From positions 1 through 64,000 of IMG/VR virus record IMGVR_UViG_3300042385_000739: a stretch of DNA of 64,000 nucleotides, one strand, 5' to 3'. The notes under the pieces were generated by a model, which was not told where the DNA came from, ran no database searches, and saw nothing but the letters and a program-made list of their open reading frames with translations. This stretch comes from an uncultured virus (IMG/VR IMGVR_UViG_3300042385_000739). Taxonomy: Duplodnaviria; Heunggongvirae; Uroviricota; Caudoviricetes. Positions 17,721 through 47,081 of the stretch are shown here, one piece after another (position 1 is the first letter of the stretch; each line of letters opens with the position of its first letter). Both the position numbers and the translations under genes were made by a program.

Positions 17721-19425
17721 CTAATGCCCGTTTAAATTCACTGTAGTCAATACGACCAGGTTTGTGTACTTGAATTAACATTCTAGTTGATAATGCTACA
17801 TTATTCAAGTGATTTAGGGCATGAGTAAGTTCTTCTTGCGTTATTTTGCCATTAGATAGACGTTGTTGATATGGATCAGTATACTCAAACTGAGTATCAC
17901 ATACTTCGATATCAATATCTTCTTCAAATGCTAGTAATGAATCACTTTCACCTTTATTTGCTTTTTCAAACATATGACGTTTGTTAAACAAGTTAAACAT
18001 AGCAACAGTAATCAATCGTTTATGTGTTGGGTCATCTAATGCAGTATCACAGCGCCAATGTGGAGTTTGTATTTCCCAAACAGCACCATTCTCACTTACA
18101 CGATATAGTTCTTTAATAACATCAATGAAGTCTCTACCAGTTTCTCCTAGATGTTCTAATATATCTTTAGCTACAACGTGTGAGTATTCGTTGTCTTTCC
18201 ATGGCCAAGGTAGAACACTTAAATCAACCTGTTCATCGGCATCAATGAATGGTGATTTATCAACGTTAACAAATCCATCAAATTTCTTAAAGCCACAACC
18301 CAAGTTAAGTTTCTTAGTGACACGATCCTCATTTGGTTGATCGATATGTTTTAAGTTGAAACGTGCTTCTAGTGCAGTGTAAAGACTTTGGAATGTTGGG
18401 TCCCATTTCTTTGGATCTGTTTGTCTAAAGATTTGTACACATTTGTAGTATGGGCTTGTGTTAGCATCAGGTGAGCCTGGTGTCCACGTATGATACGGGA
18501 GTATAGGAACGATGACCCATGTTTCTTTACCCATTGCGGCTGCTAAGTGTGCTACACTTGTACAAGATGAGATAACGATATCCATATTAGCAATAGCTGC
18601 CATTGTATCTTCCCAGCTTAACAAGAAGTGTTGCAAGTCAGTTACATTTTCAGGTAGTTGAATAATGTTATGATCCTTTTGCAAACTATATACCTGTAGT
18701 TCATCATATTTTGCTAAGTTAGTGATAAAGTTCTCTGGAAACTTTCTAAATTGTTGATGTTCAAATTTAGGATTGCCTGCCCAACGAATACCAACTTTAA
18801 TTTTTTCGCTGTTGACGAATGTTTTCCAAATTTCAATACTATCAGCTTTAGCAGTTAGATAAGGATCGTTTGGAAAGTTTGAGAATTCGTGACCAGCTAC
18901 CCATCCGGCACTAAATCCAGGAACCCAATAATCATGAGGTACAGTATGTGATTGATTTCGTAGTATAACTTTATCTACACCTTCAATACGTTCAAATACT
19001 GATACTAGTTCAGGTGCACAAGCGATGTATACTGATTTTGCACCTTGTTTTTTAAAGCTAGTAGCAAAACGTGCGTGAATGATTTCATCTCCGTACCCAC
19101 CTTCTAGTGATACAATAATAGATTTATCGTTGATAGAATGTTTTTCTGGGTTAAAAATAGGTGCATCTGTTTTAAGAGGAGGGCTACCGTATACATTTAA
19201 GAAGCGACCATTCTCTAATAGTTGACAGCCTTTTCTATAGTCACCGTCTTGAATCATAAACCAACCACGGTTAAAGCAATGACGCATCCAAATATCTTCT
19301 GTATTTTGTCCTTTAGCGTCTACTATTTTTTCAGGGCCTATGTTTTCTAATTTATCTGATAATATTCTGGCTTCTAGATGTTTACCTTCTAATTGAAGCT
19401 TGAGCATCATATCTATTTCGTGCAT
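17704..19425 (-). CDS. Fusion of a GT9 (heptosyltransferase)-like GT-B domain and a C-terminal methyltransferase-like domain
   Basis: EGGYGDEI..RF, VGIRWAGNP, D.VISSCTSVAHLAAAMGK.TW, then KLNLGCG...NVD...ILEHL...DPTH. Confidence 0.78.
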   Translation of the reverse strand: MHEIDMMLKLQLEGKHLEARILSDKLENIGPEKIVDAKGQNTEDIWMRHCFNRGWFMIQDGDYRKGCQLLENGRFLNVYGSPPLKTDAPIFNPEKHSINDKSIIVSLEGGYGDEIIHARFATSFKKQGAKSVYIACAPELVSVFERIEGVDKVILRNQSHTVPHDYWVPGFSAGWVAGHEFSNFPNDPYLTAKADSIEIWKTFVNSEKIKVGIRWAGNPKFEHQQFRKFPENFITNLAKYDELQVYSLQKDHNIIQLPENVTDLQHFLLSWEDTMAAIANMDIVISSCTSVAHLAAAMGKETWVIVPILPYHTWTPGSPDANTSPYYKCVQIFRQTDPKKWDPTFQSLYTALEARFNLKHIDQPNEDRVTKKLNLGCGFKKFDGFVNVDKSPFIDADEQVDLSVLPWPWKDNEYSHVVAKDILEHLGETGRDFIDVIKELYRVSENGAVWEIQTPHWRCDTALDDPTHKRLITVAMFNLFNKRHMFEKANKGESDSLLAFEEDIDIEVCDTQFEYTDPYQQRLSNGKITQEELTHALNHLNNVALSTRMLIQVHKPGRIDYSEFKRALDGHKS

Positions 19426-19509: not shown

Positions 19510-22500
19510 TTACTTAGTAAACCCGAAGTGATTAAAGCCATTTGATACGGTCACTGCAGAGTAACCAACCGACGTAATTGCCGGTATTAATGGGCGATTG
19601 TCGTTGAATCCCCATTCGTATAATACATTGTTAGGATCTATGACAAAAGTACTATTAAAATTCGCAGATACCTGTGTCCAAGATGATGTACCAATTTGTG
19701 TAGGCACACTATACATATTAGGAGGAGTATATGCTTGATTAGTGCCTAATTGAACTGGGCTGGATTTAGAGATCCTATCATTTAGACCAAGTTGACCACT
19801 AGTATTAAGACCCCAAACATAAAGTTTGTTATCATTGCGAGTAGCCATCGATGAATTTATATTGGATCCACCTTTATTTAAATTAGTATATATAGAAGTA
19901 CCAAGTTGTACCGGAGCTGATCTAGATAGAATGTCTAATAATCCTAATTGACCATTAGCATTATTACCCCAAGTAAACAAATAGCCATCACTACGTATAG
20001 CAAATTGACTTGCACCAGTTGTTGAAGTGATAGTCCAAGAATCGGTTGCTGTGGGCAAGAATATTGGACTTAATGCAGATGTTACTGAATTAATTCCCAA
20101 TTCACCATTGGTATTAGTTCCCCAAGTATATAAACCATATAACTGATCTAATCCAATAGTAAATAGACCACCAGCTGAGACCATAGCCCATGAACTTGTA
20201 CCAATTTGTATTGGGCTTGATTTTGAAATTATTGTACTATCCCCTAATTGACCACTAGTACCTAATCCCCATGTAAATAATAAGTTATCGCTACGTACAC
20301 CAGCCATATAGTTTACACCAGAACTAACAGATGTCCAACTAATAGTGCCTAGTTGTACCGGACTACTTCTTAGTATCACATCGTTTGTTCCTAGTTGTCC
20401 GCTAGCATTATTTCCCCAAACATATAATAGTCCATCACTAGTAATGGCTGCTGTTGCAACACTACCGGCTGAAATAATACTCCAGCTATTTGTACCTATT
20501 TGCACAGGACTACTTCTGCTTAATATAGCATTGTCACCTATTTGACCATTAGTACCAAGTCCCCACATAAATAGTGCACCATCACTACGTATTGCACCAC
20601 GTGATGTATTTTTAGAAATACTTGTCCAAACAGTACCAACGCCAATTTGTACTGGACTACTACGAGAGACTGTATCATTTTGTGCTAATTCACCGTTTGT
20701 ATTAATACCCCAAGCCCATAGTTTATTAGTAGCATCAAGAGCCATAAAGTTTGCAAGACCTGTTGATGAAGATACGGTGGTCCAACTACTTGTACCAACT
20801 TGTACTGGACTACTACGATGTACTAAATTATTTGATGCTAGTTGTCCTGATGCGTTATCACCCCAAGTAAACAATCCACCGTCAATACGAATAGCGACGG
20901 TTGATGTAGTAAATAAACCAACAGCAGTCCAAGAGCTTGTGCCAATTTGTACTGGACTGCTACGAGATATTGTATCATTTAGACCTAGTTGTCCACTAGT
21001 ACCTAAACCCCACATAAACAATGCACCGTCACTACGAATGGCAGCACTAGTAGACAGTCCAGTTGATATTGTATTCCAGCTTAAGGCTGCAGGTTTGCTT
21101 GTAGTAGTCAAGTATGTCTGTTGTATCTCTGCACTTGTGAATGAATTTACTTGTACTGGACTAGACCTATTAGCAATGGATCTATCTCCTAATTGTCCAC
21201 TAGCATTACCGCCCCAAACATATAATAAATTATTTGTATTAATTGCAGAAGTTGAGCTTTGTCCAGCACTTACTATATTCCAGCTTGTACCAACTTGAAC
21301 TGGACTACTGCGGGATAATACTGTAGTATCTCCAAGTTGTCCTGTAGTATTAATACCCCAAGTAAACAATCTATTATCAGATGTAATTCCACCCACAAAA
21401 GTTACGCCTGCACTTATTTGTGCCCAACTACTTGCGCCAATTTGTACCGGAGCAGATCGAGATATGATAGTAGTATCACCTATTTGACCACTAGCGTTAA
21501 GACCCCAAGCAAATAACAAGTTATCAATACGTATACCATATGATGTAGTTCCACCTGAGCTTACTGCATTCCATGACTCATTTATTGATCGGATAAATAC
21601 TGGACTACTTCTGGCTCCAAGAGATTCACTTAATCCAAGCTGTCCATTATTATTTTGTCCCCAAATGAAAAGTTGATTATCAGTATAAGTCAACGCCATA
21701 GTTACTCCAGGAGACGTGCCTATACTAACCTGTGACCAACTGCTTGTACCAATTTGTACTGGACTACTACGAGGTAATATTGTATTGTCTCCTAGTTGAC
21801 CATTAGTATTAATACCCCAAGACCAAAGAGTGTTGTCAAGACGTAAGGCAGTGGTTGTAGCAAATCCAGTTGATATAACAGACCAACTGCTTGTACCAAT
21901 TTGTACTGGACTACTACGAGGTAATATTGTATTGTCTCCTAGTTGACCATTAGCATTAATACCCCAAGACCACAGTGTAGAGTTAGTTCGGATAGCCATA
22001 GCATACGACAGTCCGGCTGACACACTAGACCAACTGCTTGTACCTATTTGTACTGGACTACTGCGTGGCACGATAGTAGTTGATCCTAATTGTCCACTAG
22101 TATTATCTCCCCAGGAGAAAAGAGCACCATCCAAACGTATAGCATATACACTTACATCTCCGGCACTAACCTTTGTCCAACTACTTGTACCAACTTGTAC
22201 AGGACTACTACGATGTAGTATAGTGCCATCACCTAATTGTCCGGCGTTATTATTACCCCAAGTAAACAATGCACCATCACTACGTATTGCACCAACACAA
22301 GCCAGAGTACTTACAAGAGTTCCTGTTGCAACACTTCCTGAAACTATAGTCCAGCTACTTGTACCAACTTGTACAGGACTACTGCGATGTACTAAGTCAT
22401 TTTGACCTAATTGTCCTATTGTATTTAATCCCCATGACCACAACGTATTATCATTACGGATTGCATACATTGCATTATTGCCTATTGATATCTGAGACCA

Positions 22501-25500
22501 GCTAGTTGTACCCAATTGTATTGGACTATTTGTATTAACAGTCGAATTTTGTCCTAGCTGTCCAAATGAATTAATTCCCCAAGTAAACAATGCTCCGTCA
22601 CTACGTATTGCCGCTGAACTCCCAATAGACCCACCTGCATTGATTTTGGTCCAACTGAATCCTGTTTTACCGGTAGCAGTTAAGTAAGTACTTTGTAGAG
22701 TGTTATTTGTAAATGAACTAATTTGTACTGGGCTACTCTTGTTAGCCACAAACAGTTGACCAAGTTGTCCACTAGCACCTGCACCCCAACCATATAATAC
22801 GTTGTCTGCGGTTAATGCTAAAGTTGTAAAGTCGGTTCCTGCTGTTATTCCACCTGCACTAACAGTAGTCCAACTACTTGTACCTATTTGAACTGGGCTA
22901 CTACGATGTAATATAGTGTCATCACCCAAATTACCAACTGCGTTATTACCCCAAGTAAATAGTGCACCATCACTACGTATACCTGCAAAATGTCCGGCTG
23001 AGCTAGATAATGCAGTCCAACTATATGCGGTAAACGTATTAGCGGCAGGGTTACCCCAACCATACAATTTGTTATTTGTCTTTATACCTACATTATGGCT
23101 ATAACCTGCACTAATTTTACTCCATGTATCTCCTGTGATTTGTGTAGGCATTGGTTGGTAGCTAGCAATTTGTACTGGACTAGATTTACTTACTACAGTA
23201 TTATCACCAATAGCGCCGTAGCTAGCACCCGAACCCCAACCATAAAACAATAGATTACCATCGAGCACACCGTAACTATTAGTAGATCCAGTACCAATTA
23301 TAGACCAACTACTTAAACTTACTAATGTTGGGCTAGATGTAGCAACAACAGAGTTAATACCTAATTCTCCGCTGCCGTTACCACCCCAAGTATATAGTAA
23401 CTTAGTAGAAGTTAACCCTACCATATGGCTTTGACCAACAGTAATTTGTGACCAGCTACTTGTACCAAGTTGGGTTGCACTACTACGGTGGACTAGATCA
23501 CCTAAACCTAATTGTCCATTAGCATTTTGCCCCCATACAAATAATAAACTATCACTGCGTATTGCAGCCGCAGTGTTTACATTCATTGATACTTGTGACC
23601 AAGACTCATTAGCAGTACGAATGAACACCGGGCTAGTAGATTGTGTAACAGTATTATTGCCTATTGCACCAACAGCATTTTGCCCCCATACAAATAATTG
23701 CCTGCTTGTGTTATCTATAGCTGCCGTATTAATATATAATCCACTAACCTTATACCAAGTACTAGTACCAATTTGTACCGGACTAGATCGGGAGATAGCA
23801 GTACTATCTCCTAATTGACCGTTTGTGTTTAGTCCCCAGCCCCATAATGTATTATCACTACGAATAGCAACTGAGTATTGATTACCTGCGTTAACACTTG
23901 TCCAACTACTAGTACCAATCTGTACTGGACTACTTCTAGGGAGAACATTAGTTAAACCTAAACCACCATTAGTATTAATGCCCCATGACCACAATGTATT
24001 ATTGTTTAGTAGTCCTACCATGTGTGAGTAACCAACTGCTATTTGACTCCAACTACCTGCACCAAGTTTTACAGGACTAGATTTACTTACTACGGTATTA
24101 TCACCTAACTGTCCGTTTGTATTAATTCCCCAAGTGAATAGTCCGCCGTCACTACGCAATGCGGCAGTTATAGCACCATTAGTACTAACCTGTGTCCAAC
24201 TACTTGTACCAACTTGTACAGGACTACTACGAGCTACAAGATCACCTAGTCCTAGTTGACCACTAGCATTAATTCCCCAGGCAAATAAAGCACCACCAAG
24301 TCGTATTGCAGTTACAGTCGATATCCCTGCCGCAACACTTGTCCAACTACTAGTACCAATCTGTACTGGACTACTGCGTGGCAATACATCAGTTGTACCT
24401 AATTGTCCACTAGTATTTAGACCCCACACAAATAATGCTCCATCGTTACGTATAGCATATGTAGAAAAATCTCCCACTGCTACCTGAGTCCAACTGCTTG
24501 TGCCAATTTGTACTGGACTACTACGATGGATGATAGTATTATCTCCTACACCGCCGTTGTTATTAGTTCCCCACGTGAATAATGCTCCATCATTACGTAT
24601 GGCTGCAGTCATACCATTTACACCACCGGAGCTTATTACAGACCAACTAAATGTTGTTGTTCCAGTTGCAGTTAAATAACTATTTTGCTGTGCAAGAGAA
24701 TATATCGATCCTACTTGGGTTGGACTACTTTTATTGACAGTATCATTTAAACCAAGACCACCGATGCCGTTAATACCCCATGTAAATAACAAACCATCAC
24801 TACGTATACCAGCCATAGTTGTAGCTGCCTTACTATTAATTAAAGTCCAACTACTTGTACCAATTTGTACTGGGCTACTTCTACTAAGTATTGTACTATC
24901 CCCTAGTTGACCACTAGTACCTAATCCCCAAGTCCATAAACTACCATCATTACGTATAGCCCCAAGTCCACCTACTTTACTCCAAGTAGTATCGGTACCA
25001 ATTTGAACTGGACTACTGCGGTGGACTAAATCATTTAACCCTAAATATCCGTCAGTGTTGTTACCCCAAGCCCACAATGTACCATCACTGCGTATAGCTG
25101 TAGTCCAAGATGTTTCCGAATTAACCTGTATCCAACTACTAGAACCAACTTGTACTGGACTGCTTCTATGAAATATATCACTCAGTCCTAATTGTCCAGA
25201 TTCGTTAGCTCCCCAAGTCCATAAACTACCGTCACTACGAATACCAGTGAATCGTAAATTTTGTCCAGTCAATATTGACCAAGATGTTGGAGAATTAACC
25301 GGCAATATAAAGTTTGTGGGACTTAATGTTGGATTATATGGCCATTGTTGATATTGTAATCCCCACCCATACAATGTATTATCTGATGCAATAGCAAGTG
25401 AATGTACGTTGCCAGCACTTATTTGTGACCAACTACTAGTACCAAGTTGTACTGGACTACTACGATGTAATCCCTCATTATTTACCTGATATGAACTATT

Positions 25501-28500
25501 ATTACCCCAGGCAAATAATTTATTAGTACTAGAAATAGCAAGCACGTGACTTATACCTGCACTAACTTGTGACCAACTGCTAGCACCTATTTGTGTTGGG
25601 CTATTTGAGTATGGTGTTGCACCAACTTGTACTGGGCTACTACGATGTTCTAACCAACTACCTGATATAGTTGTTGGATTAAATGCTAATCCTAGTGCTC
25701 CATTAGTGTTATTACCCCATATATATGCTATACCAGTAGTTGTGATTGCATTGGTTATTCCTGAACCGGCAGCACTAACACTTGCCCAGTCGCTATTATT
25801 ACCTATTTGAGTAGGATATGATTTACTAGTTGTAGAATTATCACCCAACTGTCCAAAAGTTGTATTAATTCCCCAAGTAAATAGTTTTCCATCGGATCTA
25901 ATAGCTGATGACAAGCTTTGTCCAGCGCCAACGCTAATCCAGGAATCATTCATTGAGCGAATGAATACCGGGCTACTGCGGCTGGTAATTCCTAATATAC
26001 CCAATTCTCCACTAGTACCAAGTCCCCAAGTAAATAATGCGTTACCTGTATCGGCTGCAGTAATACCTAAAATGTTAGTATAGCCAGTTACCATTGTCCA
26101 ACTATTTGCACCAATTTGTACAGGGAATGATTTAGCAACTGTGGTACCATCACCCAATGATCCAGCAGTATTATTTCCCCAAGCAAACAGTAAACCATCA
26201 CTTCGTATTCCTGATAATCCTGCAACAACTGTACCAATTGCAGTCCAAGAATCTGCTACTGAACGAATGAATACTGGGCTGGATCTACCGGCAACAACAC
26301 CATTACCAATAACGCCATCCCCACCTGCAGTAGTTCCCCATGTAAACATTTGCCCATTTGCATCAAGTGCGACTATTGCACTACCTGCATTAACGGTAGT
26401 CCAACTACTTGTACCTGTAGTAAGTGTTGGACTAAAATATGTGTTCACTAGTGAGTTATTACCAAACTGTGCATTAGCTCCACTACCCCACATATATAGT
26501 AAATTACCACTTATACCGGCTGTGACTGTGCCGCCTGCAGTTACTACACTCCAACTACTTGTACCAATTTGTACAGGACTACTACGATGTTGGGTAGAAT
26601 CCGGAGTTCCTAACACACCACTAGTACCTGCACCCCAAGTGAATAATGAACCATCACTGAGAATTGCTACTGTCCATGATAAACCAGATGCTACTGCAGT
26701 CCAACTGCTACTACCAATTTGTACTGGGCTACTACGATTTAGAGCAGTGCCATCACCTAGTTGTCCAAATGTGTTTACTCCCCATGCATATAATGCGCCA
26801 GTAGTACGTATAGCATTACTTCTATTATTTGCAGAATAAACTTTTGACCATGTGTTTTCAGTACCGATTTGTACTGGACTACTACGAGCTACTACTGTGT
26901 TTAATCCCAGTTGACCTACATCATTAGCACCCCAACTCCATAATGTACCATCACTACGAACCGCTAATACTGTACCGCCGGTAGTGTTAAACGGTCCTGT
27001 TGCAACAGCAGTCCAACTACTTGTACCAACTTGTACCGGGCTACTACGATGAGCCTGTGTACCATCACCTACAGTACCTGCAGTGTTAACTCCCCAAGTC
27101 CATAATGTATTATCACTACGTATGGCAGCCGTGAATGATGCTCCTGCTGATACTGTCAACCAGCTATTAGTACCAACTTGTACAGGACTACTACGATGCA
27201 CTATGTCATTTAGACCTAATGCGCCATTGATGTTATTACCCCATGCAAACAATAAGCCGTCATTACGAATAGCAAACATTGTATTATTGGTATTTACCAC
27301 AGTAGACCAACTGTAACCAGTCTTACTTGTCTTTGTCAAATATGCCTGTTGTTCTGCAGGTGAAGAGAACGAAACAATTTGTACAGGGCTATTACGAGCA
27401 ACTACAGTTCTATCCCCTAATGCACCACCTGAACCAGAACCCCACGTGTACAATGTATTGTTAGCCATTATACCTGCTGTTGTACCAGATGCTTGTGTAG
27501 CAACAATATTCCAATTACTTGTACCAAGTTGTACAGGGCTACTGCGTGAAATTGAGTCACCGATGCCAAGCTCACCGGCTGTATTTAATCCCCATGCAAA
27601 TAATTTACTATCAGTTCGTATTGCAAATGTGCTGTTACCATTTGCTGTTACTAATGTCCAGCTGTTACCCGTACCTACTTGTACTGGGCTACTTCTAGCG
27701 ATAATATCGTTTACTCCAAGATTACCAGAACCATTGACTCCCCAACCATATAATTTTCCATCCAACGTAATAGCAAAGGTAGATGTAGCGTTAGTTGTAC
27801 TATTAGATGGTACAACTGACCAACTACTTGTGCCTAGTTGAACTGGGCTACTACGATGTACTAAATCATTTAGACCAAGTTGACCATTAAAATTGCCACC
27901 CCAAACAAATAATAGTCCGTCACTTCTAATAGCGTAAGTATGGCTTATGCCAGCAGCAATACCACTCCAATTACTTGTTCCTATTTGTACCGGACTACTT
28001 CTGTGTAGAATATCATTTAAACCAAGTTGTCCGATACTGTTAGTTCCCCATGCAAATAACTTACTATCGCTACGAATAGCAAATGAAGTAGATGCACCTG
28101 CGGTTACTGTAGTCCAACTCAATGTTCTAGGTTTACCTGTACTAGTTGACCAAGCAATTTCATCAGCTAATGTAATTAGTGATGAAATTATTACAGGTAA
28201 TAAGATTGTTCCTGGAGCATTACCTGTACCCAATTGACCATTATCATTATTGCCCCAACCGTATAAAACATTGTCCATGGTTAAAGCTAATGTATGAGTA
28301 GAGCCGGTGCTTATCATAGTCCAGCTACTTGTACCAACTTGTACTGGACTTGATTTTAGTATGACGGTGTTGTCCCCCAATTGACCAACATCATTATTAC
28401 CCCATGACCATAATGTTTTATCATTACGAATGGCCGCGGTAAATGTATCACCCTGTGCAACTTGGTACCAAGTATTAATAGTTGCATTTACTTGCACTGG

Positions 28501-31500
28501 GCTACTAGTATCTACTACACTGTTAATACCTAATTCACCGACTGTATTACCGCCCCATGCGTATAAATACCCATTACCATTAGTGTAGTCCTGTATTATT
28601 CCCATGCGTCCAGCAACCATAGTCCAACTACTTGAACCAATTTGTACTGGACTAGATTTATTTACAATTGAGTTGTCACCTAATCCACCATACGTATTAT
28701 TACCCCAAGTAAATAAGGCTCCATCACTTCTTATTGCAGAAACAACGTATGCATTTCCAATATCACCAGATTGTCCTGCACTAACCATAATCCAGCTACT
28801 TGTACCAACCTGTACTGGACTACTGCGATGTACTGTGTCATTAAGGCCCAATTGTCCTTGGCTATTAAGTCCCCATGACCACAAATAATTATTAGTGTCA
28901 ATACTAAAAGCATTACCGAAGCCTGCCGCTAGTTGTTTCCAACTACCGGTACCTATTTGTACTGGACTACTTCTATTAATACCATCATTCTCTCCTAACT
29001 CCCCTACGGTATTTTTACCCCATGACCACAATGTTCCATCTAATCGTATACCATAGGACGATGAATCCAATCCTGACACCGCTGAGGTCCAAAGTAAATT
29101 ACCAATCTGTACTGGACTACTACGAGCTACAACAGTATTATCTCCTATTTGTCCTGAATTATTGAAACCCCAAGCCCATAACGTACCATCAATACGTATA
29201 GCGATGGGAGTTAGTCTTCCAGCAGAAACCATATTCCAGCTACTTGTACCAACCTGTACAGGACTACTTCTGAGAAGACCACTAACGTTTGCACCTAATG
29301 CACCTAATGAATTATCAGTTCCCCATGACCAAAGTGATTTGTCACTACTACGTATAGCAAATAAAAATCCTTGTCCAGCACTAACCATAGTCCAACTACT
29401 AGTACCAATCTGCACAGGGCTACTACGATGTATTTGATTATTTGTACCTAATTGACCGTATGTATTACTACCCCAAGACCATAAACTACCATCACTTCTT
29501 ATGCCTGCCGCAGTTTGTGTGCCATCTACTGGCATACTAGATCCTGATAGATATGTCCAACTTAATAAATCTTTACCTAACTGTATTGGTTGGGATCTAT
29601 TTATAACATTATTTTGTCCTAATTGACCACTAGTCCCTAGACCCCAAAGCCAAAGTGTATTATCATTACGTATACCAGCGACATGGTTTGAGTTAAAACT
29701 TCCTTCACCTATACTTGTCCAAGAATCATTCATAGAGCGAATGAATACAGGTGTAGACATAGTTACCATGTTACCGTCACCTATTTGGCCGTCAGTACCA
29801 ATACCCCAAGTATATAATTGACCGGCTGAAGTAATACCCATACCGCCTGATGACCCAGCCGGTACTATAGTCCAACTACTAGTAGTAACTTGTAATGGTA
29901 ATGATTGGTTACCTGGGTTGCCACCTAACGCACCAAATCCATTATATCCCCATCTAAATAACAAACCATCACTACGCACAGCTCCATATTCATCTGTACC
30001 TGAACTTACATAAGTCCATGAATCAAATATACCTGCACGAATAAATACTGGGCTAGAACGTTGCAATATAGTATTATCACCTACACCACCTTGTGTGTTG
30101 CCTGCCCAAGTAAACAACACACCGTTACTATCTATTGCAGTAGCTCCATTAACAAAAGTCCAACTACTACTACCTATTAGTACTGGGCTGTTTTTATTAG
30201 CAGTTGTATTATCACCCAATTCGCCGTTAGTATTTAAACCCCAAGCAAACAATGCACCATCATTACGTATTCCATACATAGTAGATGTCCAACTGTTGAC
30301 ATAATTCCATGTATTAGTTCCAACTTGTACGGGACTGCTACGATGCACTGAACTGGCTGCCCCTAATTGACCAGACCCATTAGCCCCCCAAGTAAACAAT
30401 GCACCATTACTACTTATAGCACCAGTGAATGACCCGCCTAACGCAACCATAGTCCAACTACTTGTGCCTAGTTGAACTGGGCTACTACGAGCTACTGCAT
30501 CATTAAATCCTAACTGCCCCAGTGTATTATCACCCCATATAAATAAAGCACCGTCTGTTCGTATGGCAGCTAAATTTGTACCAAAATTAGTGCCGCTTGC
30601 TACCATAGTCCAACTACTACTACCAACTTGTACCGGACTACTTCGATTTACTGCGTCATTTAGTCCTAATTGGCCTACTGTATTAGCTCCCCAAGCCCAT
30701 AAACCACCGCCACTTTTAATAGCGGCCATCGGTCCTATGGATGATCCGGATGCTAGTTTTATCCAATCAGTATCAGTACCGACCTGTACCGGGCTACTGC
30801 GATGTATTTGATTATTTTGTCCTAATGAACCTTCATCATTACGACCCCATGTCCATAATGTTCCATCTATTTTGATTGCGGCTGCATATGATGTGCCTCC
30901 AGCAATTGCAGCCCAACTACTTGTACCGATTTGCACAGGGCTACTACGATGTACTAAATCATTTAGACCTAATTGTCCTATAGTATTTTGTCCCCATGAA
31001 AATAACAATCCATCACTACGTAATGCCAATCTAGTATTACTACCTGTAGTAAATGTCAAATTGGCTACAGTAGTCCAACTAAGCGGTGTTACTCCTATGG
31101 TAGTTAAATATGTTTGTTGTTGTGCTGATGTTCTAATTGAAGTTATTTGTACTGGACTACTTTTGTTTATCCCCAGTCCTTCACCAAGATAGGTACCTGT
31201 GCCCCAAGAATACAACGCACCATCTGTAGTTATTCCCATTGTGACACTTGTTCCACTAGTGACCATAGTCCAACTACTTGTACCAATTTGTATTGGGCTA
31301 GATTTTGCAACTAATGTGGTGTCACCCAATTGACCATTAGTATTAACACCCCACGTAAATAAGTTACCTGTAGTAGTTATGGCGGCGGTCATGCCAGAAC
31401 CAGCACTGACCATAGTCCAACTACTTGTGCCTAGTTGAACTGGACTACTGCGATGTACACCAACGTCATTGAGACCTAATTGTCCATTAGTGTTATTTCC

Positions 31501-32664
31501 CCAAACCCATAATGCACCGTTTGTGTCTATGGCAGCAACGTTATCCTGACTAACCGCACCGTTAGTTATTACTTTACTCCAAATAGTAGCGGTACCAACT
31601 TGTACTGGACTACTTCTATTAATAATGTTATTTGATCCCAACTGCCCGGCTGCATTATACCCCCATGACCACAAAGTATTGTCTGCTCGTATTGCAAGTG
31701 TAGCAAATCCGTTAGCAGATACGCTAGACCAACTGCTAGTACCAACTTGTACTGGGCTACTACGTCTAACAATATCATTTAATCCCAAATTACCATAAGT
31801 ATTAAGTCCCCAAGCAAATAATGCACCATCATTTCTTATAGCAAACATTGACCATGCGGCACCATACGATACTGCTGTCCAACTAAGTTGTGTAGTAGCT
31901 ATACTAGATACATATGACTGTTGGATTTGAACTGAAGTTAATGAACCAGTTAAGGTAGGGCTTGAAAGATTATTTGTATTATTATTACCTCCTTGCCCTT
32001 GACCAGCACTACCCCATACCCACAGTGTACTATCAGAACGTAGTGCTGTGCGTGTTGTTCCGCCACTTCCGCCTAATGCAGACCAAGTACTTGTACCAAT
32101 TTGTACTGGACTACTGCGATGTACTGTGTCATTAAGGCCCAATTGTCCTTGGCTATTAATACCACCGATAGCCCACATTGTACCATCAGATTCTATACCT
32201 ATAGTATTTCCGGCCAGTACTTGAGTCCAACTGTTTGCCGCCCAAGATGATAACATACTATTATTACCAAGTTGACCGTTAAACCCTAATCCCCAAGCAA
32301 ACATTAATCCATCATTATTAATAGCATAAGAAGTATCACCGTTAGTACTAACCGCACTCCAATTATTAACACCTATCTGTACTGGGCTACTACGATGTGC
32401 TAATGTAAGATCATTATTGCCTAATTGACCATATGTATTGGCGCCCCATCCAAATAGTTTACCGTCACTACGAATACCTATAGTATGACTTAATCCACTT
32501 GCAACTTGGCTCCATGATTGTGTACCGATTAATACTGGACTAGATTTAAAAACTGTATTTTCTGTTCCGAGTTGACCCCAAGTGTTGTCACCGAACATAT
32601 ATAATGATTCAATATCACCGCCGGTTGATGGTTGGACTGTTAATAACCATTTTTCTAATAACAT
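19510..32664 (-). CDS. Giant RCC1/BLIP-II repeat beta-propeller protein, 4384 aa, 84 blades (12 x 7); putative virion adhesin
   Basis: About 50-aa repeats W-x-x-V-S-A-G...AIRSDG-x-L-F/W-x-WG-x-N-x-x-GQLG...RSSPVQIGTSS; 84 blades counted by hand. Confidence 0.9.
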   Translation of the reverse strand: MLLEKWLLTVQPSTGGDIESLYMFGDNTWGQLGTENTVFKSSPVLIGTQSWSQVASGLSHTIGIRSDGKLFGWGANTYGQLGNNDLTLAHRSSPVQIGVNNWSAVSTNGDTSYAINNDGLMFAWGLGFNGQLGNNSMLSSWAANSWTQVLAGNTIGIESDGTMWAIGGINSQGQLGLNDTVHRSSPVQIGTSTWSALGGSGGTTRTALRSDSTLWVWGSAGQGQGGNNNTNNLSSPTLTGSLTSVQIQQSYVSSIATTQLSWTAVSYGAAWSMFAIRNDGALFAWGLNTYGNLGLNDIVRRSSPVQVGTSSWSSVSANGFATLAIRADNTLWSWGYNAAGQLGSNNIINRSSPVQVGTATIWSKVITNGAVSQDNVAAIDTNGALWVWGNNTNGQLGLNDVGVHRSSPVQLGTSSWTMVSAGSGMTAAITTTGNLFTWGVNTNGQLGDTTLVAKSSPIQIGTSSWTMVTSGTSVTMGITTDGALYSWGTGTYLGEGLGINKSSPVQITSIRTSAQQQTYLTTIGVTPLSWTTVANLTFTTGSNTRLALRSDGLLFSWGQNTIGQLGLNDLVHRSSPVQIGTSSWAAIAGGTSYAAAIKIDGTLWTWGRNDEGSLGQNNQIHRSSPVQVGTDTDWIKLASGSSIGPMAAIKSGGGLWAWGANTVGQLGLNDAVNRSSPVQVGSSSWTMVASGTNFGTNLAAIRTDGALFIWGDNTLGQLGFNDAVARSSPVQLGTSSWTMVALGGSFTGAISSNGALFTWGANGSGQLGAASSVHRSSPVQVGTNTWNYVNSWTSTMYGIRNDGALFAWGLNTNGELGDNTTANKNSPVLIGSSSWTFVNGATAIDSNGVLFTWAGNTQGGVGDNTILQRSSPVFIRAGIFDSWTYVSSGTDEYGAVRSDGLLFRWGYNGFGALGGNPGNQSLPLQVTTSSWTIVPAGSSGGMGITSAGQLYTWGIGTDGQIGDGNMVTMSTPVFIRSMNDSWTSIGEGSFNSNHVAGIRNDNTLWLWGLGTSGQLGQNNVINRSQPIQLGKDLLSWTYLSGSSMPVDGTQTAAGIRSDGSLWSWGSNTYGQLGTNNQIHRSSPVQIGTSSWTMVSAGQGFLFAIRSSDKSLWSWGTDNSLGALGANVSGLLRSSPVQVGTSSWNMVSAGRLTPIAIRIDGTLWAWGFNNSGQIGDNTVVARSSPVQIGNLLWTSAVSGLDSSSYGIRLDGTLWSWGKNTVGELGENDGINRSSPVQIGTGSWKQLAAGFGNAFSIDTNNYLWSWGLNSQGQLGLNDTVHRSSPVQVGTSSWIMVSAGQSGDIGNAYVVSAIRSDGALFTWGNNTYGGLGDNSIVNKSSPVQIGSSSWTMVAGRMGIIQDYTNGNGYLYAWGGNTVGELGINSVVDTSSPVQVNATINTWYQVAQGDTFTAAIRNDKTLWSWGNNDVGQLGDNTVILKSSPVQVGTSSWTMISTGSTHTLALTMDNVLYGWGNNDNGQLGTGNAPGTILLPVIISSLITLADEIAWSTSTGKPRTLSWTTVTAGASTSFAIRSDSKLFAWGTNSIGQLGLNDILHRSSPVQIGTSNWSGIAAGISHTYAIRSDGLLFVWGGNFNGQLGLNDLVHRSSPVQLGTSSWSVVPSNSTTNATSTFAITLDGKLYGWGVNGSGNLGVNDIIARSSPVQVGTGNSWTLVTANGNSTFAIRTDSKLFAWGLNTAGELGIGDSISRSSPVQLGTSNWNIVATQASGTTAGIMANNTLYTWGSGSGGALGDRTVVARNSPVQIVSFSSPAEQQAYLTKTSKTGYSWSTVVNTNNTMFAIRNDGLLFAWGNNINGALGLNDIVHRSSPVQVGTNSWLTVSAGASFTAAIRSDNTLWTWGVNTAGTVGDGTQAHRSSPVQVGTSSWTAVATGPFNTTGGTVLAVRSDGTLWSWGANDVGQLGLNTVVARSSPVQIGTENTWSKVYSANNRSNAIRTTGALYAWGVNTFGQLGDGTALNRSSPVQIGSSSWTAVASGLSWTVAILSDGSLFTWGAGTSGVLGTPDSTQHRSSPVQIGTSSWSVVTAGGTVTAGISGNLLYMWGSGANAQFGNNSLVNTYFSPTLTTGTSSWTTVNAGSAIVALDANGQMFTWGTTAGGDGVIGNGVVAGRSSPVFIRSVADSWTAIGTVVAGLSGIRSDGLLFAWGNNTAGSLGDGTTVAKSFPVQIGANSWTMVTGYTNILGITAADTGNALFTWGLGTSGELGILGITSRSSPVFIRSMNDSWISVGAGQSLSSAIRSDGKLFTWGINTTFGQLGDNSTTSKSYPTQIGNNSDWASVSAAGSGITNAITTTGIAYIWGNNTNGALGLAFNPTTISGSWLEHRSSPVQVGATPYSNSPTQIGASSWSQVSAGISHVLAISSTNKLFAWGNNSSYQVNNEGLHRSSPVQLGTSSWSQISAGNVHSLAIASDNTLYGWGLQYQQWPYNPTLSPTNFILPVNSPTSWSILTGQNLRFTGIRSDGSLWTWGANESGQLGLSDIFHRSSPVQVGSSSWIQVNSETSWTTAIRSDGTLWAWGNNTDGYLGLNDLVHRSSPVQIGTDTTWSKVGGLGAIRNDGSLWTWGLGTSGQLGDSTILSRSSPVQIGTSSWTLINSKAATTMAGIRSDGLLFTWGINGIGGLGLNDTVNKSSPTQVGSIYSLAQQNSYLTATGTTTFSWSVISSGGVNGMTAAIRNDGALFTWGTNNNGGVGDNTIIHRSSPVQIGTSSWTQVAVGDFSTYAIRNDGALFVWGLNTSGQLGTTDVLPRSSPVQIGTSSWTSVAAGISTVTAIRLGGALFAWGINASGQLGLGDLVARSSPVQVGTSSWTQVSTNGAITAALRSDGGLFTWGINTNGQLGDNTVVSKSSPVKLGAGSWSQIAVGYSHMVGLLNNNTLWSWGINTNGGLGLTNVLPRSSPVQIGTSSWTSVNAGNQYSVAIRSDNTLWGWGLNTNGQLGDSTAISRSSPVQIGTSTWYKVSGLYINTAAIDNTSRQLFVWGQNAVGAIGNNTVTQSTSPVFIRTANESWSQVSMNVNTAAAIRSDSLLFVWGQNANGQLGLGDLVHRSSATQLGTSSWSQITVGQSHMVGLTSTKLLYTWGGNGSGELGINSVVATSSPTLVSLSSWSIIGTGSTNSYGVLDGNLLFYGWGSGASYGAIGDNTVVSKSSPVQIASYQPMPTQITGDTWSKISAGYSHNVGIKTNNKLYGWGNPAANTFTAYSWTALSSSAGHFAGIRSDGALFTWGNNAVGNLGDDTILHRSSPVQIGTSSWTTVSAGGITAGTDFTTLALTADNVLYGWGAGASGQLGQLFVANKSSPVQISSFTNNTLQSTYLTATGKTGFSWTKINAGGSIGSSAAIRSDGALFTWGINSFGQLGQNSTVNTNSPIQLGTTSWSQISIGNNAMYAIRNDNTLWSWGLNTIGQLGQNDLVHRSSPVQVGTSSWTIVSGSVATGTLVSTLACVGAIRSDGALFTWGNNNAGQLGDGTILHRSSPVQVGTSSWTKVSAGDVSVYAIRLDGALFSWGDNTSGQLGSTTIVPRSSPVQIGTSSWSSVSAGLSYAMAIRTNSTLWSWGINANGQLGDNTILPRSSPVQIGTSSWSVISTGFATTTALRLDNTLWSWGINTNGQLGDNTILPRSSPVQIGTSSWSQVSIGTSPGVTMALTYTDNQLFIWGQNNNGQLGLSESLGARSSPVFIRSINESWNAVSSGGTTSYGIRIDNLLFAWGLNASGQIGDTTIISRSAPVQIGASSWAQISAGVTFVGGITSDNRLFTWGINTTGQLGDTTVLSRSSPVQVGTSWNIVSAGQSSTSAINTNNLLYVWGGNASGQLGDRSIANRSSPVQVNSFTSAEIQQTYLTTTSKPAALSWNTISTGLSTSAAIRSDGALFMWGLGTSGQLGLNDTISRSSPVQIGTSSWTAVGLFTTSTVAIRIDGGLFTWGDNASGQLASNNLVHRSSPVQVGTSSWTTVSSSTGLANFMALDATNKLWAWGINTNGELAQNDTVSRSSPVQIGVGTVWTSISKNTSRGAIRSDGALFMWGLGTNGQIGDNAILSRSSPVQIGTNSWSIISAGSVATAAITSDGLLYVWGNNASGQLGTNDVILRSSPVQLGTISWTSVSSGVNYMAGVRSDNLLFTWGLGTSGQLGDSTIISKSSPIQIGTSSWAMVSAGGLFTIGLDQLYGLYTWGTNTNGELGINSVTSALSPIFLPTATDSWTITSTTGASQFAIRSDGYLFTWGNNANGQLGLLDILSRSAPVQLGTSIYTNLNKGGSNINSSMATRNDNKLYVWGLNTSGQLGLNDRISKSSPVQLGTNQAYTPPNMYSVPTQIGTSSWTQVSANFNSTFVIDPNNVLYEWGFNDNRPLIPAITSVGYSAVTVSNGFNHFGFTK

Positions 32665-32667
32665 ATT

Positions 32668-33177
32668 TTAACCACCAAACATAGGCCAAATAATATTAAA
32701 AGGATCTGTCTGCGTAGTAATATCTGCTAATGCTTGCATATATGCATCCATTAATGTTAAATCATCTACAGTGGGTTCACCTAATCTAAGTTGTCTATCA
32801 TATCGAGTGTATCGCCATTCAAAATCTTTCATCTTTGTATCACGTTCACCTCTTATCAAATTCCATTGATCTCTAGTACGTAGTTCTTGTTGTAGCTGTA
32901 TATCTTCAGGCGAGGGTTCGTATATCACTGATTTAGGTAGCTCAATAATATCCATTGTTTCATACGCAACACCATCAGTAAAATACTGTCTAGGATTATC
33001 TATTTTTTGTGTTTCTGGATTATATTCAGGGTATGCTTTTACTAATGTATACCAACCAAATGATAAACGTTCTTCTTCTGTAAGTGCATAAAAATTACTG
33101 ATATTTTTCCAATTATTTGGAATAAGGTCGTATACACCTTCTATATTACCGTCAACAATATGAGCATAATTAGCCAT
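32668..33177 (-). CDS. Tail fibre assembly chaperone-like protein
   Basis: C-terminal W..IR.ERD....FEW...Y.QALADIT.Q.DPF.I.WP motif. Likely start ATG 33177 (TAATG overlap). Confidence 0.72.
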   Translation of the reverse strand: MANYAHIVDGNIEGVYDLIPNNWKNISNFYALTEEERLSFGWYTLVKAYPEYNPETQKIDNPRQYFTDGVAYETMDIIELPKSVIYEPSPEDIQLQQELRTRDQWNLIRGERDTKMKDFEWRYTRYDRQLRLGEPTVDDLTLMDAYMQALADITTQTDPFNIIWPMFGG

Positions 33178-33569
33178 TATAAATTTTGTCCTGAAACAAA
33201 TGCCTGCCAATTTATACCACCATCAGTAGTAAAAAAGGTGAATACATCTTCTTTGTTATTACTTGATGTTAATGTAGGAGCAGTTCCTCCTGGCCAGTGA
33301 AAGCTAGCAGGCCAAGTAACTGAACGAGCAGTACCATCAGCAGTGAAAACTAGTACAAATGAACTTGCTCTACCTGCTGATTGTATGTTAGAGAATGTGA
33401 TAGATGTGATGTTAGAATTTAAAGCGACATTGAATACAGTAGCGATGTTTAAATTTAGTGCTAAAACGCCGGCACTAATAGTAGCAGTCGCACTAACTTC
33501 TGCTGAATTGTTTGGTAAAAATACCTTATTGTCGTCAATTACGGTCGACCCGATTACTTTAATTGCCAT
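33177..33569 (-). CDS. Small beta-rich virion/fibre adaptor-like protein
   Basis: 130 aa with RSVTWP...WPGGTAPTLT...DVFTF.T.DGG.NW; AAGGAG RBS. Confidence 0.6.
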   Translation of the reverse strand: MAIKVIGSTVIDDNKVFLPNNSAEVSATATISAGVLALNLNIATVFNVALNSNITSITFSNIQSAGRASSFVLVFTADGTARSVTWPASFHWPGGTAPTLTSSNNKEDVFTFFTTDGGINWQAFVSGQNL

Positions 33570-47073: not shown

Positions 47074-47081
47074 TTTATACC

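What the first reader, a model, noticed from the sequence alone, without database searches (positions are those of the whole stretch)
20035..31944. Dedicated opener and closer linker motifs bracket the inserted propellers
Seen: a longer, probably helical opener of the form S-x(4-5)-Q-Q-x-Y-L-T-x(6-8)-SW occurs at about 31879-31944, 31075-31140, 27307-27372, 24643-24710, 22651-22720 and 21077-21145, with a diverged copy at 28114-28186 (7 in all). A closer in which the usual SSPVQIGTSSW becomes PVFIR-x-x-x-[DE]SW occurs at about 30016, 29719, 26245, 25939, 23599 and 21571, with a PIFLPTATDSW variant at 20035 (7 in all). Each opener/closer pair encloses exactly 7 own blades. One further child uses a short variant pair (QLGKDLLSW about 29557, QVNATINTW about 28468). 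Inference: opener and closer pack together as a two-stranded stem, forming a portable insertable propeller unit.
Basis: partly seen in the sequence, partly recalled or inferred. Interest (0 to 1): 0.8.

Follow-up and report, generated by a model that had tools for sequence, protein, structure and literature searches.

The report
Linker pairs bracketing seven-blade propeller cassettes
A giant phage protein made of 84 propeller blades carries two conserved kinds of linker that pair like brackets around exactly seven blades, which suggests whole propellers spliced inside other propellers, although structure prediction did not reproduce that arrangement.

Summary
Read as brackets, the 7 long openers, 7 PVFIR closers and the short pair enclose exactly 7 own blades each. 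None of 500,000 random placements did so. I found three further pairs of a second type. With them the 84 blades parse into 12 rings of seven.

Three results support whole-cassette insertion:
- Four full-length orthologues (56-69% identity) keep every motif in place.
- One orthologue lacks exactly one opener-propeller-closer unit and has an ordinary junction there.
- Blade bodies alone, with no linker residues, show position-in-ring similarity under the nested parse (24 of 55 ring pairs) but not under any tandem phase (2-8 of 55).

The motifs sit in the turn between the first two strands of a blade.

Against nesting, the one confident AlphaFold model (pLDDT 82) grouped blades 7+7+7 in simple order. 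Opener-closer contact is therefore untested. The motif pair is confined to this orthologue group. The scan had already noted the nested architecture on other DNA, including this same protein. I give nesting about 0.6.

The parts
19510..32664 (-). Single ORF of 4384 aa made only of RCC1-type blades (84 by my count)
   Evidence: ORF list and translation. Pfam RCC1 matches 61 stretches, and WD40_RLD scores 2121 bits. All 77 RCC1 matches in the 76.9-kb record fall in this frame.
31879..31959 (-). Opener O1 (aa 236-262, PTLTGSLTSVQIQQSYVSSIATTQLSW). It opens the split ring Pb (blades 5-9 plus 17-18).
31075..31155 (-). Opener O2 (aa 504-530). It opens ring Pa (blades 10-16), which is nested inside Pb.
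30016..30051 (-). Closer C2 (aa 872-883, PVFIRAGIFDSW). It closes Pa.
29719..29751 (-). Closer C1 (aa 972-982, PVFIRSMNDSW). It closes Pb.
29557..29589 (-). Short opener (aa 1026-1036, PIQLGKDLLSW). It opens ring Pc (blades 20-26).
28468..28500 (-). Short closer (aa 1389-1399, PVQVNATINTW). It closes Pc.
28114..28197 (-). Diverged opener O4 (aa 1490-1517, PVIISSLITLADEIAWSTSTGKPRTLSW). It opens the split ring Pe (blades 29-33 plus 41-42).
   Evidence: Mean identity to the four orthologues is 0.84.
27307..27387 (-). Opener O5 (aa 1760-1786). It opens ring Pd (blades 34-40), which is nested inside Pe.
26245..26277 (-). Closer C5 (aa 2130-2140, PVFIRSVADSW). It closes Pd.
25939..25971 (-). Closer C4 (aa 2232-2242, PVFIRSMNDSW). 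It closes Pe.
24643..24723 (-). Opener O6 (aa 2648-2674). It opens ring Pf (blades 51-57).
23599..23631 (-). Closer C6 (aa 3012-3022, PVFIRTANESW). It closes Pf.
22651..22731 (-). Opener O7 (aa 3312-3338). It opens ring Pg (blades 64-70).
   Evidence: In the model the linker has low pLDDT.
21571..21603 (-). Closer C7 (aa 3688-3698, PVFIRSINESW). It closes Pg.
   Evidence: In one search RSSPVFI is modelled as a strand, like an ordinary RSSPVQI.
21076..21156 (-). Opener O8 (aa 3837-3863). It opens ring Ph (blades 74-80). The unit is absent from orthologue P0008.
   Evidence: A helix is modelled at aa 3844-3851 with low confidence.
20035..20067 (-). Closer variant C8 (aa 4200-4210, PIFLPTATDSW). 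It closes Ph. The unit is absent from P0008.
32227..32265 (-). It has no SSPVQ strand and opens ring T2.
   Evidence: This is my own addition.
25573..25689 (-). Second-type closer (aa 2326-2364, ...SSPVQVGATPYSNSPTQIGASSW), with a doubled first strand. It closes T2.
25279..25359 (-). Second-type opener (aa 2436-2462, LQYQQWPYNPTLSPTNFILPVNSPTSW). It opens T3.
23122..23178 (-). Second-type closer (aa 3163-3181, PVQIASYQPMPTQITGDTW). It closes T3.
23017..23052 (-). Second-type opener (aa 3205-3216, NPAANTFTAYSW). It opens T4.
19678..19758 (-). Second-type closer (aa 4303-4329, PVQLGTNQAYTPPNMYSVPTQIGTSSW). It closes T4.
32566..32664 (-). N-terminal part-blade (aa 1-33). It holds only the last strand or strands (…ESLYMFG) before the first GQLG loop.
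   Evidence: Sequence. Conserved in orthologues.
19513..19608 (-). C-terminal part-blade (aa 4353-4384). It ends after three strands (PLIPAIT, YSAVTVSNG, FNHFGFTK). It is the candidate partner of the N-terminal strand in one closing blade of the root ring.
   Evidence: Sequence. Conserved in orthologues. The pairing itself is inferred.
32668..33210 (-). Upstream neighbour, 180 aa, resembling a phage tail assembly chaperone
   Evidence: Pfam Phage_tail_APC, E 6.9e-07. PHROG tail fiber assembly. Syntenic with phage BUCT-ZZ01.
17704..19425 (-). Downstream neighbour, 573 aa. It is 49% identical to the gene that follows the 14-blade RCC1 gene of Synechococcus phage BUCT-ZZ01.

Best explanation
The opener and closer are the two chain crossings by which a complete seven-blade RCC1 propeller cassette is spliced into one blade of another propeller.

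Shown: where the motifs sit. Each repeat has four strands: RSSPVQI, SWxxVS, xxAIR and LFxWG. Both motif classes sit in the turn between the first and second strand.
- An ordinary turn is G-T-S-S.
- The opener keeps the host blade's first strand (SSPVQI), then adds about 18 conserved residues (S-[FIL]-x5-Q-x-x-Y-L-T-x-T-G-K-T-x-x), then enters 'SW', the second strand of the cassette's first blade.
- After seven blade bodies the cassette ends with a first strand of its own (SSPVF-I).
- It then returns through a turn only two residues longer than normal (R-[ST]-x-x-[DE]-S) into the host blade's 'SW' strand.

Inferred: how the rings close.
- The cassette's terminal first strand closes the cassette's first blade, in a one-plus-three strand 'Velcro'.
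- The host's first strand, left in front of the opener, pairs with the strands that follow the closer.
- Opener and closer would then run side by side between the two rings.

Second-type pairs. Three further pairs do the same job from the loop between two blades. Their opener lacks SSPVQ. Their closer carries two first strands in a row.

Overall architecture. Eleven cassettes plus a root ring closed by the protein's two ends give a tree of 12 propellers up to four levels deep.

Likely role. The gene's place behind a tail fibre gene and a tail-assembly-chaperone gene suggests a branched, multivalent virion fibre or adhesin. This last step is inferred from gene order only.
For: (1) Bracket parse. 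7, 8 and then 11 pairs each enclose exactly 7 own blades, and 7 blades are left for the root. None of 500,000 random placements did this.

(2) Non-standard junctions. I count 22 in the protein. That is the number a tree of 12 rings needs (2 x 11), and none is left over.

(3) Conservation. No indel of 12 aa or more separates P0005, P0006 and P0007 from the window protein. All 22 junctions are kept in place. Identity to the orthologues is 0.48-0.81 for opener linkers and 0.60-0.91 for closers, against 0.61 for blade bodies. These are therefore constrained sequences, not free loops.

(4) A natural loss or gain of one whole unit. P0008 joins blade 73 to blade 81 by an ordinary SSPVQVGTSSW junction.

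(5) A test that uses no linker residues. It asks whether blade bodies resemble the body at the same position in other rings.
- Under the nested parse the in-register shift was best in 24 of 55 ring pairs.
- For the two split rings against the six contiguous rings it was best in 9 of 12.
- The seven tandem phases gave 2-8 of 55.
- 200 random groupings gave a mean of 7.4 and a maximum of 15.
- The orthologues repeat this: 21, 22 and 16 of 55, and 10 of 36.

(6) Strand assignment from the pLDDT-82 model places both motifs in the first-to-second strand turn.

(7) Other lineages. A 21-blade protein (P0124) and 14-blade proteins (P0170, P0195) have their own long and short junction pairs seven blades apart.

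(8) Synteny. Tail fibre, then chaperone-like protein, then RCC1 protein, then the 573-aa protein, shared with cyanophage BUCT-ZZ01.
Against: AlphaFold did not reproduce nesting.
- In the model of aa 3205-4303 (77-row alignment, pLDDT 82.4, pTM 0.46), solved RCC1-like propellers superpose best on a contiguous stretch, model residues 387-757, which is blades 69-75. UVR8 gave Z 24.6, rmsd 3.0 and 350 aligned residues.
- 38 of 50 rows lie within residues 357-784.
- None of the 50 rows lies within the two expected child rings (residues 134-483 and 659-995).
- 5 of 50 rows span about 460-479 to 1073-1099 with a poorer fit.
- That is a plain 7+7+7 grouping from the construct's start. The alignment rows were offset by one blade in the first half, and I could see neither coordinates nor an error map.
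- Job 1 was uninformative (pLDDT 50.4).

The parse and the register test could reflect a history of cassette insertion without the present fold being nested.

Some 21-blade relatives (for example P0150) have almost uniform junctions. Ring crossings therefore do not always need special linkers.

Crowding. Two cassettes sit in neighbouring blades of ring T2, and the closer is only two residues longer than normal. My own geometric reasoning suggests that this is tight.

Virion association is not shown.
Confidence: 0.6

Rival explanations
1. Tandem array with cassette scars. The 84 blades fold as 12 propellers in simple order along the chain. Cassettes of seven blades were inserted during evolution, because only multiples of seven keep the rings whole. 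The opener and closer are retained end-pieces that now form surface loops in the first-to-second strand turn. They may serve as binding loops.
For: The only confident model groups blades 7+7+7 in sequence order and treats the openers as low-confidence loops. Relatives with uniform junctions show that rings can be crossed without special linkers. This arrangement has no crowding problem.
Against: - It gives no reason for exactly 22 special junctions in two complementary classes.
- It gives no reason for their conservation at or above the level of folded blades across paralogous cassettes and orthologues.
- It gives no reason why closers of the second type carry two first strands while their openers carry none.
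- It must cross rings at ordinary four-residue turns while leaving 22-residue turns inside rings (my reasoning).
- Blade bodies show no position-in-ring signal in any tandem phase: 2-8 of 55.
- The grouping in the model starts at the arbitrary start of my construct.
Confidence: 0.3
2. Nested rings without strand exchange. Every blade is a contiguous four-strand unit, and the chain changes ring in the ordinary loops between blades. The opener is a long excursion inside the cassette's first blade. The closer is a modified turn in the host blade that follows. Both are adaptations at the ring seam rather than the crossing itself.
For: The closer and both members of the short pair are only two residues longer than an ordinary turn. 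That fits a normal hairpin. The same counts of seven hold.
Against: A 22-residue, conserved connection between two strands of one hairpin is unusual. Closers of the second type, with two first strands in tandem, fit strand exchange better. No structural data decide between the two readings.
Confidence: 0.08
3. Ordinary repeat variation. The motifs are chance variants of the junction with no relation to domain borders.
For: Junction sequences do vary among RCC1 repeats.
Against: None of 500,000 random placements gave the all-seven parse. The motifs are conserved in position in four orthologues.
Confidence: 0.02

Closest known systems
Single RCC1-like domains (UVR8, HERC2 RLDs, RPGR, human RCC1, BLIP-II)
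   Same: The repeat is the same: Pfam RCC1 and WD40_RLD. The sequence matches UVR8 at E 9.5e-47. A seven-blade ring in the model superposes on UVR8 with Z 24-25. The four-strand blades and the part-blades at the chain ends fit the usual closure.
   Different: All 31 solved chains matched by sequence are single propellers of 370-536 residues. This protein has 84 blades, no other domain, and dedicated linker pairs every seven own blades. I expect neither the nucleotide-exchange role nor the photoreceptor role, and neither was tested.
Multi-propeller RCC1 proteins of phages and metagenomes (14-blade BUCT-ZZ01 protein; about 1100-aa 21-blade family such as P0124)
   Same: The BUCT-ZZ01 gene lies in the same position between a chaperone-like gene and the 573-aa gene. 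Blade numbers are multiples of seven. In some members, long and short junctions pair seven blades apart.
   Different: Their linker sequences differ: GxxPxAGTxxW paired with xY[IV]xAW in P0124. The QQxYLT opener was found in none of them. Among the 114 other giant proteins, 0 have the opener and 3 have a single PVFIR-like match. Among proteins under 2411 aa there were 13 candidates and none scored. None of the 131 new proteins in the library-wide profile search matched either pattern. Many members show no marked junctions at all.
Known domain insertions and multi-propeller proteins (integrin I domain in a propeller loop; DDB1; Aip1, whose first strand closes its second propeller). Recalled, from no call.
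   Same: A folded domain whose two ends lie close together is spliced into a loop of another domain. A strand from a distant part of the chain closes a ring.
   Different: In the proposed reading here, host and guest are the same fold, the splice is recursive (up to four levels, 11 guests), and it uses a reusable pair of linker motifs. Searches for 'nested propeller', 'inserted propeller' and similar phrases found no such description.

Membership tests
RCC1-like repeat / RCC1-like domain (Pfam PF00415, PF25390) | Repeats of about 50 residues that score above the curated Pfam cut-offs | tested here: met
   RCC1 scores 1631.8 bits over 61 stretches (cut-off 21.7). WD40_RLD scores 2121 bits (cut-off 150). 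Both.
RCC1-like repeat / RCC1-like domain (Pfam PF00415, PF25390) | Seven four-stranded blades forming a closed propeller | tested here: met
   The model has pLDDT 82.4 and four strands per repeat. One seven-blade stretch superposes on UVR8 with Z 24.6, rmsd 3.0 and 350 aligned residues. Which blades share a ring is not settled.
RCC1-like repeat / RCC1-like domain (Pfam PF00415, PF25390) | Ring closed by strands from both chain ends | tested here: inconclusive
   The N-terminus carries only the last strand or strands. The C-terminus stops after three strands. Both are conserved. The contact itself was not modelled.
Nested (inserted) domain architecture | The guest is a complete domain bounded by two crossings, and the host segments on either side form one domain | tested here: inconclusive
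   Sequence tests agree with it: the parse, the register test, and the whole-unit absence in P0008. The AlphaFold model does not show it.
Nested (inserted) domain architecture | Opener and closer adjacent in space | not testable with these tools
   No coordinates or predicted error map are returned.
Phage tail fibre / receptor-binding module | Gene lies within the tail-fibre gene cluster | tested here: met
   The upstream genes are a 966-aa fibre protein with a Peptidase_S74 chaperone domain and a protein resembling Phage_tail_APC. Further upstream lie giant genes with hits to families annotated as baseplate or virion structural proteins.
Phage tail fibre / receptor-binding module | Protein present in the virion and binding the host surface | not testable with these tools
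   The phage is uncultured: an IMG/VR record of 76,916 bases with estimated completeness of 22.

The most novel reading that the evidence does not exclude
A protein built as a recursive tree. Eleven circularly permuted seven-blade propellers are each closed by their own terminal strand. Each is plugged into a hairpin turn or an inter-blade loop of another propeller through a reusable opener/closer linker pair. The nesting is four levels deep, and the root ring is closed by the two ends of the 4384-residue chain. The linker pair would be a natural 'plug' that lets whole propellers be gained or lost as cassettes. This would explain how phage fibre genes grow from 14 to 84 blades at one locus.
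Probability: 0.5. Interest if true: 0.8.

Novelty: new variant of a known kind. Interest (0 to 1): 0.6.

Why it matters
If the bracketed sets really are separate rings, the opener/closer pair is a compact natural solution for inserting one closed repeat domain into another of the same fold, again and again. The result would be a branched single-chain protein with a dozen binding faces.

That would matter in three ways:
- It would be a new kind of architecture for repeat proteins.
- It would give a rule for reading the thousands of giant RCC1 proteins seen in phage metagenomes. One search found 599 proteins of 2411-7672 aa, and one search found 7356 proteins of 422-1344 aa.
- It would be a ready-made design element for protein engineering.

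It would also show how phage host-recognition genes can expand by whole-domain cassettes.

If the tandem reading is right instead, the motifs are still useful markers of the gene's duplication history, but they are structurally ordinary.

Tried and rejected
- AlphaFold job 1 (aa 223-990, with 4 orthologues as the alignment) gave pLDDT 50.4 and pTM 0.40. I did not interpret it.
- Alignment A3 (aa 223-990 plus 90 shorter relatives) placed foreign residues under the opener columns, so I did not fold it.
- Alignment A5 (giant orthologues added to A4) lost coverage: 0.67 against 0.92. I used A4.
- Blade-by-blade best hits gave only weak position signals. The ring-level register test replaced them.
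- DNA repeats inside the gene are old, at 60-85% identity, and no recent cassette copy is present.
- P0009 (2605 aa, from an 8979-nt contig) has its blocks in scrambled order and unbalanced motifs. I treated it as a fragment or assembly chimera and dropped it from the orthologue counts.
- The opener profile search of 1.84 billion representatives mostly hit the ordinary SSPVQI part of the profile. Full-length matches came only from P0008 and P0009.
- The near-identity search of the phage collection found nothing.
- Literature searches found no description of nested propellers and nothing relevant on RCC1 in cyanophages or tail fibres. In one paper the 'RCC1' hits were culture-collection strain numbers.
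- I considered complex prediction on the three host fragments of ring T4 and did not run it. Any RCC1 fragments that add up to seven blades would probably be predicted to assemble, so a pass would not separate nested from tandem.
- A general rule that ring crossings need non-standard junctions is not tenable, because relatives such as P0150 have uniform junctions.
Full report
WHAT IS THERE

The finding lies wholly inside one open reading frame, window 19510-32664 on the minus strand, of 4384 residues. Pfam reads it as RCC1 repeats throughout: 61 stretches, with WD40_RLD at 2121 bits. All 77 RCC1 matches in the 76,916-base virus record fall in this frame.

Neighbouring genes:
- Upstream are a 966-aa fibre protein with a Peptidase_S74 chaperone domain and a 180-aa protein resembling a tail assembly chaperone.
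- Further upstream are giant genes that hit families annotated as baseplate or virion structural proteins.
- Downstream are glycosyl- and methyltransferases and ribonucleotide reductase.

The cultured Synechococcus phage BUCT-ZZ01 (Kyanoviridae) shows the same order: chaperone-like gene, RCC1 gene, 573-aa gene. Its 571-aa gene is 49% identical to the window's 573-aa gene. Its RCC1 protein, however, has only 14 blades in 700 aa.

CHECKING THE OBSERVATION

I cut the protein at the LFxWG strand and curated the cuts by hand. This gives 83 full blades plus a part-blade at each end, 84 in all.

The distance from the P of SSPVQ to the W of SW separates the junction classes:
- 7-9 residues at ordinary junctions;
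- 10-11 at the closers;
- 26-27 at the openers;
- 10 and 10 for the short pair.

The short pair adds an eighth.
- Random placement of the marks never produced this, in 0 of 500,000 trials.
- Shuffling the two labels over the true positions did so in 2.75e-4 (7+7) or 4.5e-5 (8+8) of 200,000 trials.

Twenty-eight blades remained outside the eight pairs. Six further odd junctions pair up in the same way. They lie at aa 134-146, 2326-2364, 2436-2462, 3163-3181, 3205-3216 and 4303-4329.

With them, all 11 pairs enclose seven own blades. Seven blades remain, including the two terminal part-blades.

These three pairs are of a second type:
- The opener lacks the SSPVQ strand.
- The closer carries two such strands in tandem. 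Examples are PVQLGTNQAYTPPNMYSVPTQIGTSSW, PVQVGATPYSNSPTQIGASSW and PVQIASYQPMPTQITGDTW.

By my count the protein has 22 non-standard junctions. That is the number of crossings a tree of 12 rings needs.

RELATIVES

A search among proteins of 2411-7672 aa found 599 relatives at E up to 0.001 among 1621 scored candidates. Four are full-length orthologues:
- P0005 at 69% identity;
- P0006 at 66%;
- P0007 at 67%;
- P0008 at 56%.

P0005, P0006 and P0007 have no indel of 12 aa or more against the window protein, and they keep all 22 junctions.

P0008 is 336 aa shorter. Read directly, it joins the blade equivalent to 73 to the one equivalent to 81 through an ordinary SSPVQVGTSSW junction. It therefore lacks exactly opener 8, ring Ph and closer 8.

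P0009 is a 2605-aa product of an 8979-nt contig. Its blocks are in scrambled order, and I dropped it.

Mean identity to the four orthologues:
- opener linkers, 0.48-0.81;
- closers, 0.60-0.91;
- ordinary junctions, 0.82;
- blade bodies, 0.61.

The opener consensus over 34 sequences is SSPVQI.S[FIL].....Q..YLT.TGK.T..SW.

The motif pair is specific to this lineage:
- Among the 114 other giant proteins, 0 match the opener pattern and 3 have a single closer-like match.
- No protein under 2411 aa scored with the opener region: 13 candidates, none scored.
- A profile of six window openers was run over 1.84 billion representatives. It matched over its full length only in P0008 and P0009. None of the 131 new proteins among the best 150 carries either pattern.

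Other lineages seem to use other pairs:
- P0124, with 21 blades, has long junctions (GPNPVAGTNDW, GATPAAGTSW) and short ones (SYIGAW, EYVEAW), each pair seven blades apart.
- The 14-blade proteins P0170 and P0195 show one such pair.
- Many 21-blade relatives have almost uniform junctions.

A TEST WITHOUT LINKERS

I used only the blade bodies, from SW to WG. For each pair of rings I asked which cyclic shift gives the highest mean similarity.
- Under the nested parse, shift 0 won in 24 of 55 pairs.
- For the two split rings against the six contiguous rings it won in 9 of 12.
- Each of the seven possible tandem phases gave 2-8 of 55.
- 200 random groupings gave a mean of 7.4 and a maximum of 15.
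- The orthologues gave 21, 22 and 16 of 55, and 10 of 36, against 3-11 for the tandem phases. They are not independent of the window protein.

This result shows two things. Blades after an inner cassette behave as positions 6 and 7 of the outer cassette. Cassettes, not runs of seven in sequence order, are the repeating unit. By itself it proves a history of cassette-in-cassette insertion. It does not prove the present fold.

STRUCTURE PREDICTION

Job 1 covered aa 223-990 with four orthologues as the alignment. It failed, with pLDDT 50.4.

Job 2 covered aa 3205-4303, which should hold three complete rings. The alignment had 76 relatives of about 1100 aa. It gave pLDDT 82.4 and pTM 0.46.

The secondary structure of job 2 is clear. 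Each repeat has four strands: RSSPVQI, WxxVSA, xxAIR and LFxWG. Both motif classes therefore occupy the turn between the first and second strand of a blade.
- The closer's SSPVFI is modelled as a strand, like any other first strand.
- Opener 8 shows a short helix (SAEIQQTY) at low confidence.
- Opener 7 shows no helix.

The ring grouping in job 2 is not the nested one. The second look against solved structures gave the following:
- 38 of 50 rows fell within model residues 357-784.
- The best UVR8 fits lay at residues 387-757, which is blades 69-75.
- 5 of 50 rows spanned roughly 460-479 to 1073-1099 and fitted worse.
- None of the 50 rows lay within the expected child rings.

The model thus looks like 7+7+7 counted from the start of my construct. 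There are three caveats:
- The alignment rows are shifted by one blade over the first half.
- I could see neither coordinates nor an error map.
- The model has to cross rings at ordinary four-residue turns while keeping 22-residue turns inside rings.

I count it as real evidence against nesting, but not as decisive. Solved structures found by sequence are all single propellers.

HOW IT MOST LIKELY WORKS

Shown:
- the motif positions;
- their balance and the counts of seven;
- their conservation;
- the absence of one whole unit in one orthologue;
- their place in the first-to-second strand turn.

Inferred:
- A cassette starts with the second strand of its first blade and ends with a first strand (SSPVF-I) that closes that blade.
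- The host's first strand, left before the opener, pairs with the strands after the closer.
- The opener is about 18 extra residues and the closer two extra residues.
- The second-type pairs do the same from the loop between blades.

I give the nested reading 0.6. I give a tandem fold with cassette scars 0.3. Nested rings without strand exchange get 0.08, and chance gets 0.02.

A role as a branched virion fibre or adhesin rests on gene order only.

EARLIER NOTES AND LITERATURE

The scan's earlier notes already describe the nested architecture on other DNA. They include a 4384-residue protein with 84 blades and twelve rings, which is evidently this protein on another record. Several follow-ups report that structure prediction did not reproduce the nesting, as happened here.

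What this report adds:
- the anatomy of the linker pairs;
- the second linker type;
- the linker-free register test;
- the natural single-cassette variant;
- the restriction of the motif pair to one lineage.

I found no paper that describes propellers nested in propellers. For those searches I saw search listings and abstracts. I read passages of PMC7247149 and PMC12906663, and neither is relevant. The comparison with DDB1, Aip1 and integrin I domains is recalled from memory, not tested here.

Noticed in passing
window 17704-19425 (-), and L001 8281-9996: A 573-aa protein always follows the RCC1 gene and is 49% identical between this phage and BUCT-ZZ01. It has no Pfam hit. Its C-terminal part matches a PHROG methyltransferase family. 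It might modify the Ser/Thr-rich RCC1 protein.
   Followed up: partly
window 36554-41200 (-) and 54197-59059 (-): Two further giant genes (1548 and 1620 aa) carry six Laminin_G_3 / concanavalin-like lectin repeats each. They hit PHROG families annotated as baseplate-wedge or virion structural proteins. This is a second kind of repeat-built putative fibre in the same cluster.
   Followed up: no
window 46171-47993 (-): Two adjacent paralogous genes of about 300 aa (PHROG 2295) lie in a stretch whose G+C jumps to 0.49, against about 0.38 around it.
   Followed up: no
window 48368-54163 (-): A 1931-aa ORF has no PHROG match at E up to 1e-5. It lies between the lectin-repeat giants.
   Followed up: no
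P0150 (21-blade relative, 1088 aa): Nineteen of its 20 junctions are nearly identical (RSSPVQIGTLTDWA or close to it) and one is deviant (RFSPTAIGAAHKWT). This looks like a recently amplified, idealised repeat protein. It shows that multi-ring RCC1 proteins can lack marked crossings.
   Followed up: partly
P0009 (2605 aa, from an 8979-nt contig): The blocks of the orthologous gene appear in scrambled order. The likely cause is repeat-induced misassembly. This is a warning for counting blades in metagenomic RCC1 giants.
   Followed up: partly
window 19510-32664: The last blade of each contiguous cassette (blades 16, 26, 40, 57, 70, 80) is the least like any other blade, with best similarity 0.34-0.49 against typical values around 0.6. 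First blades resemble one another.
   Followed up: partly
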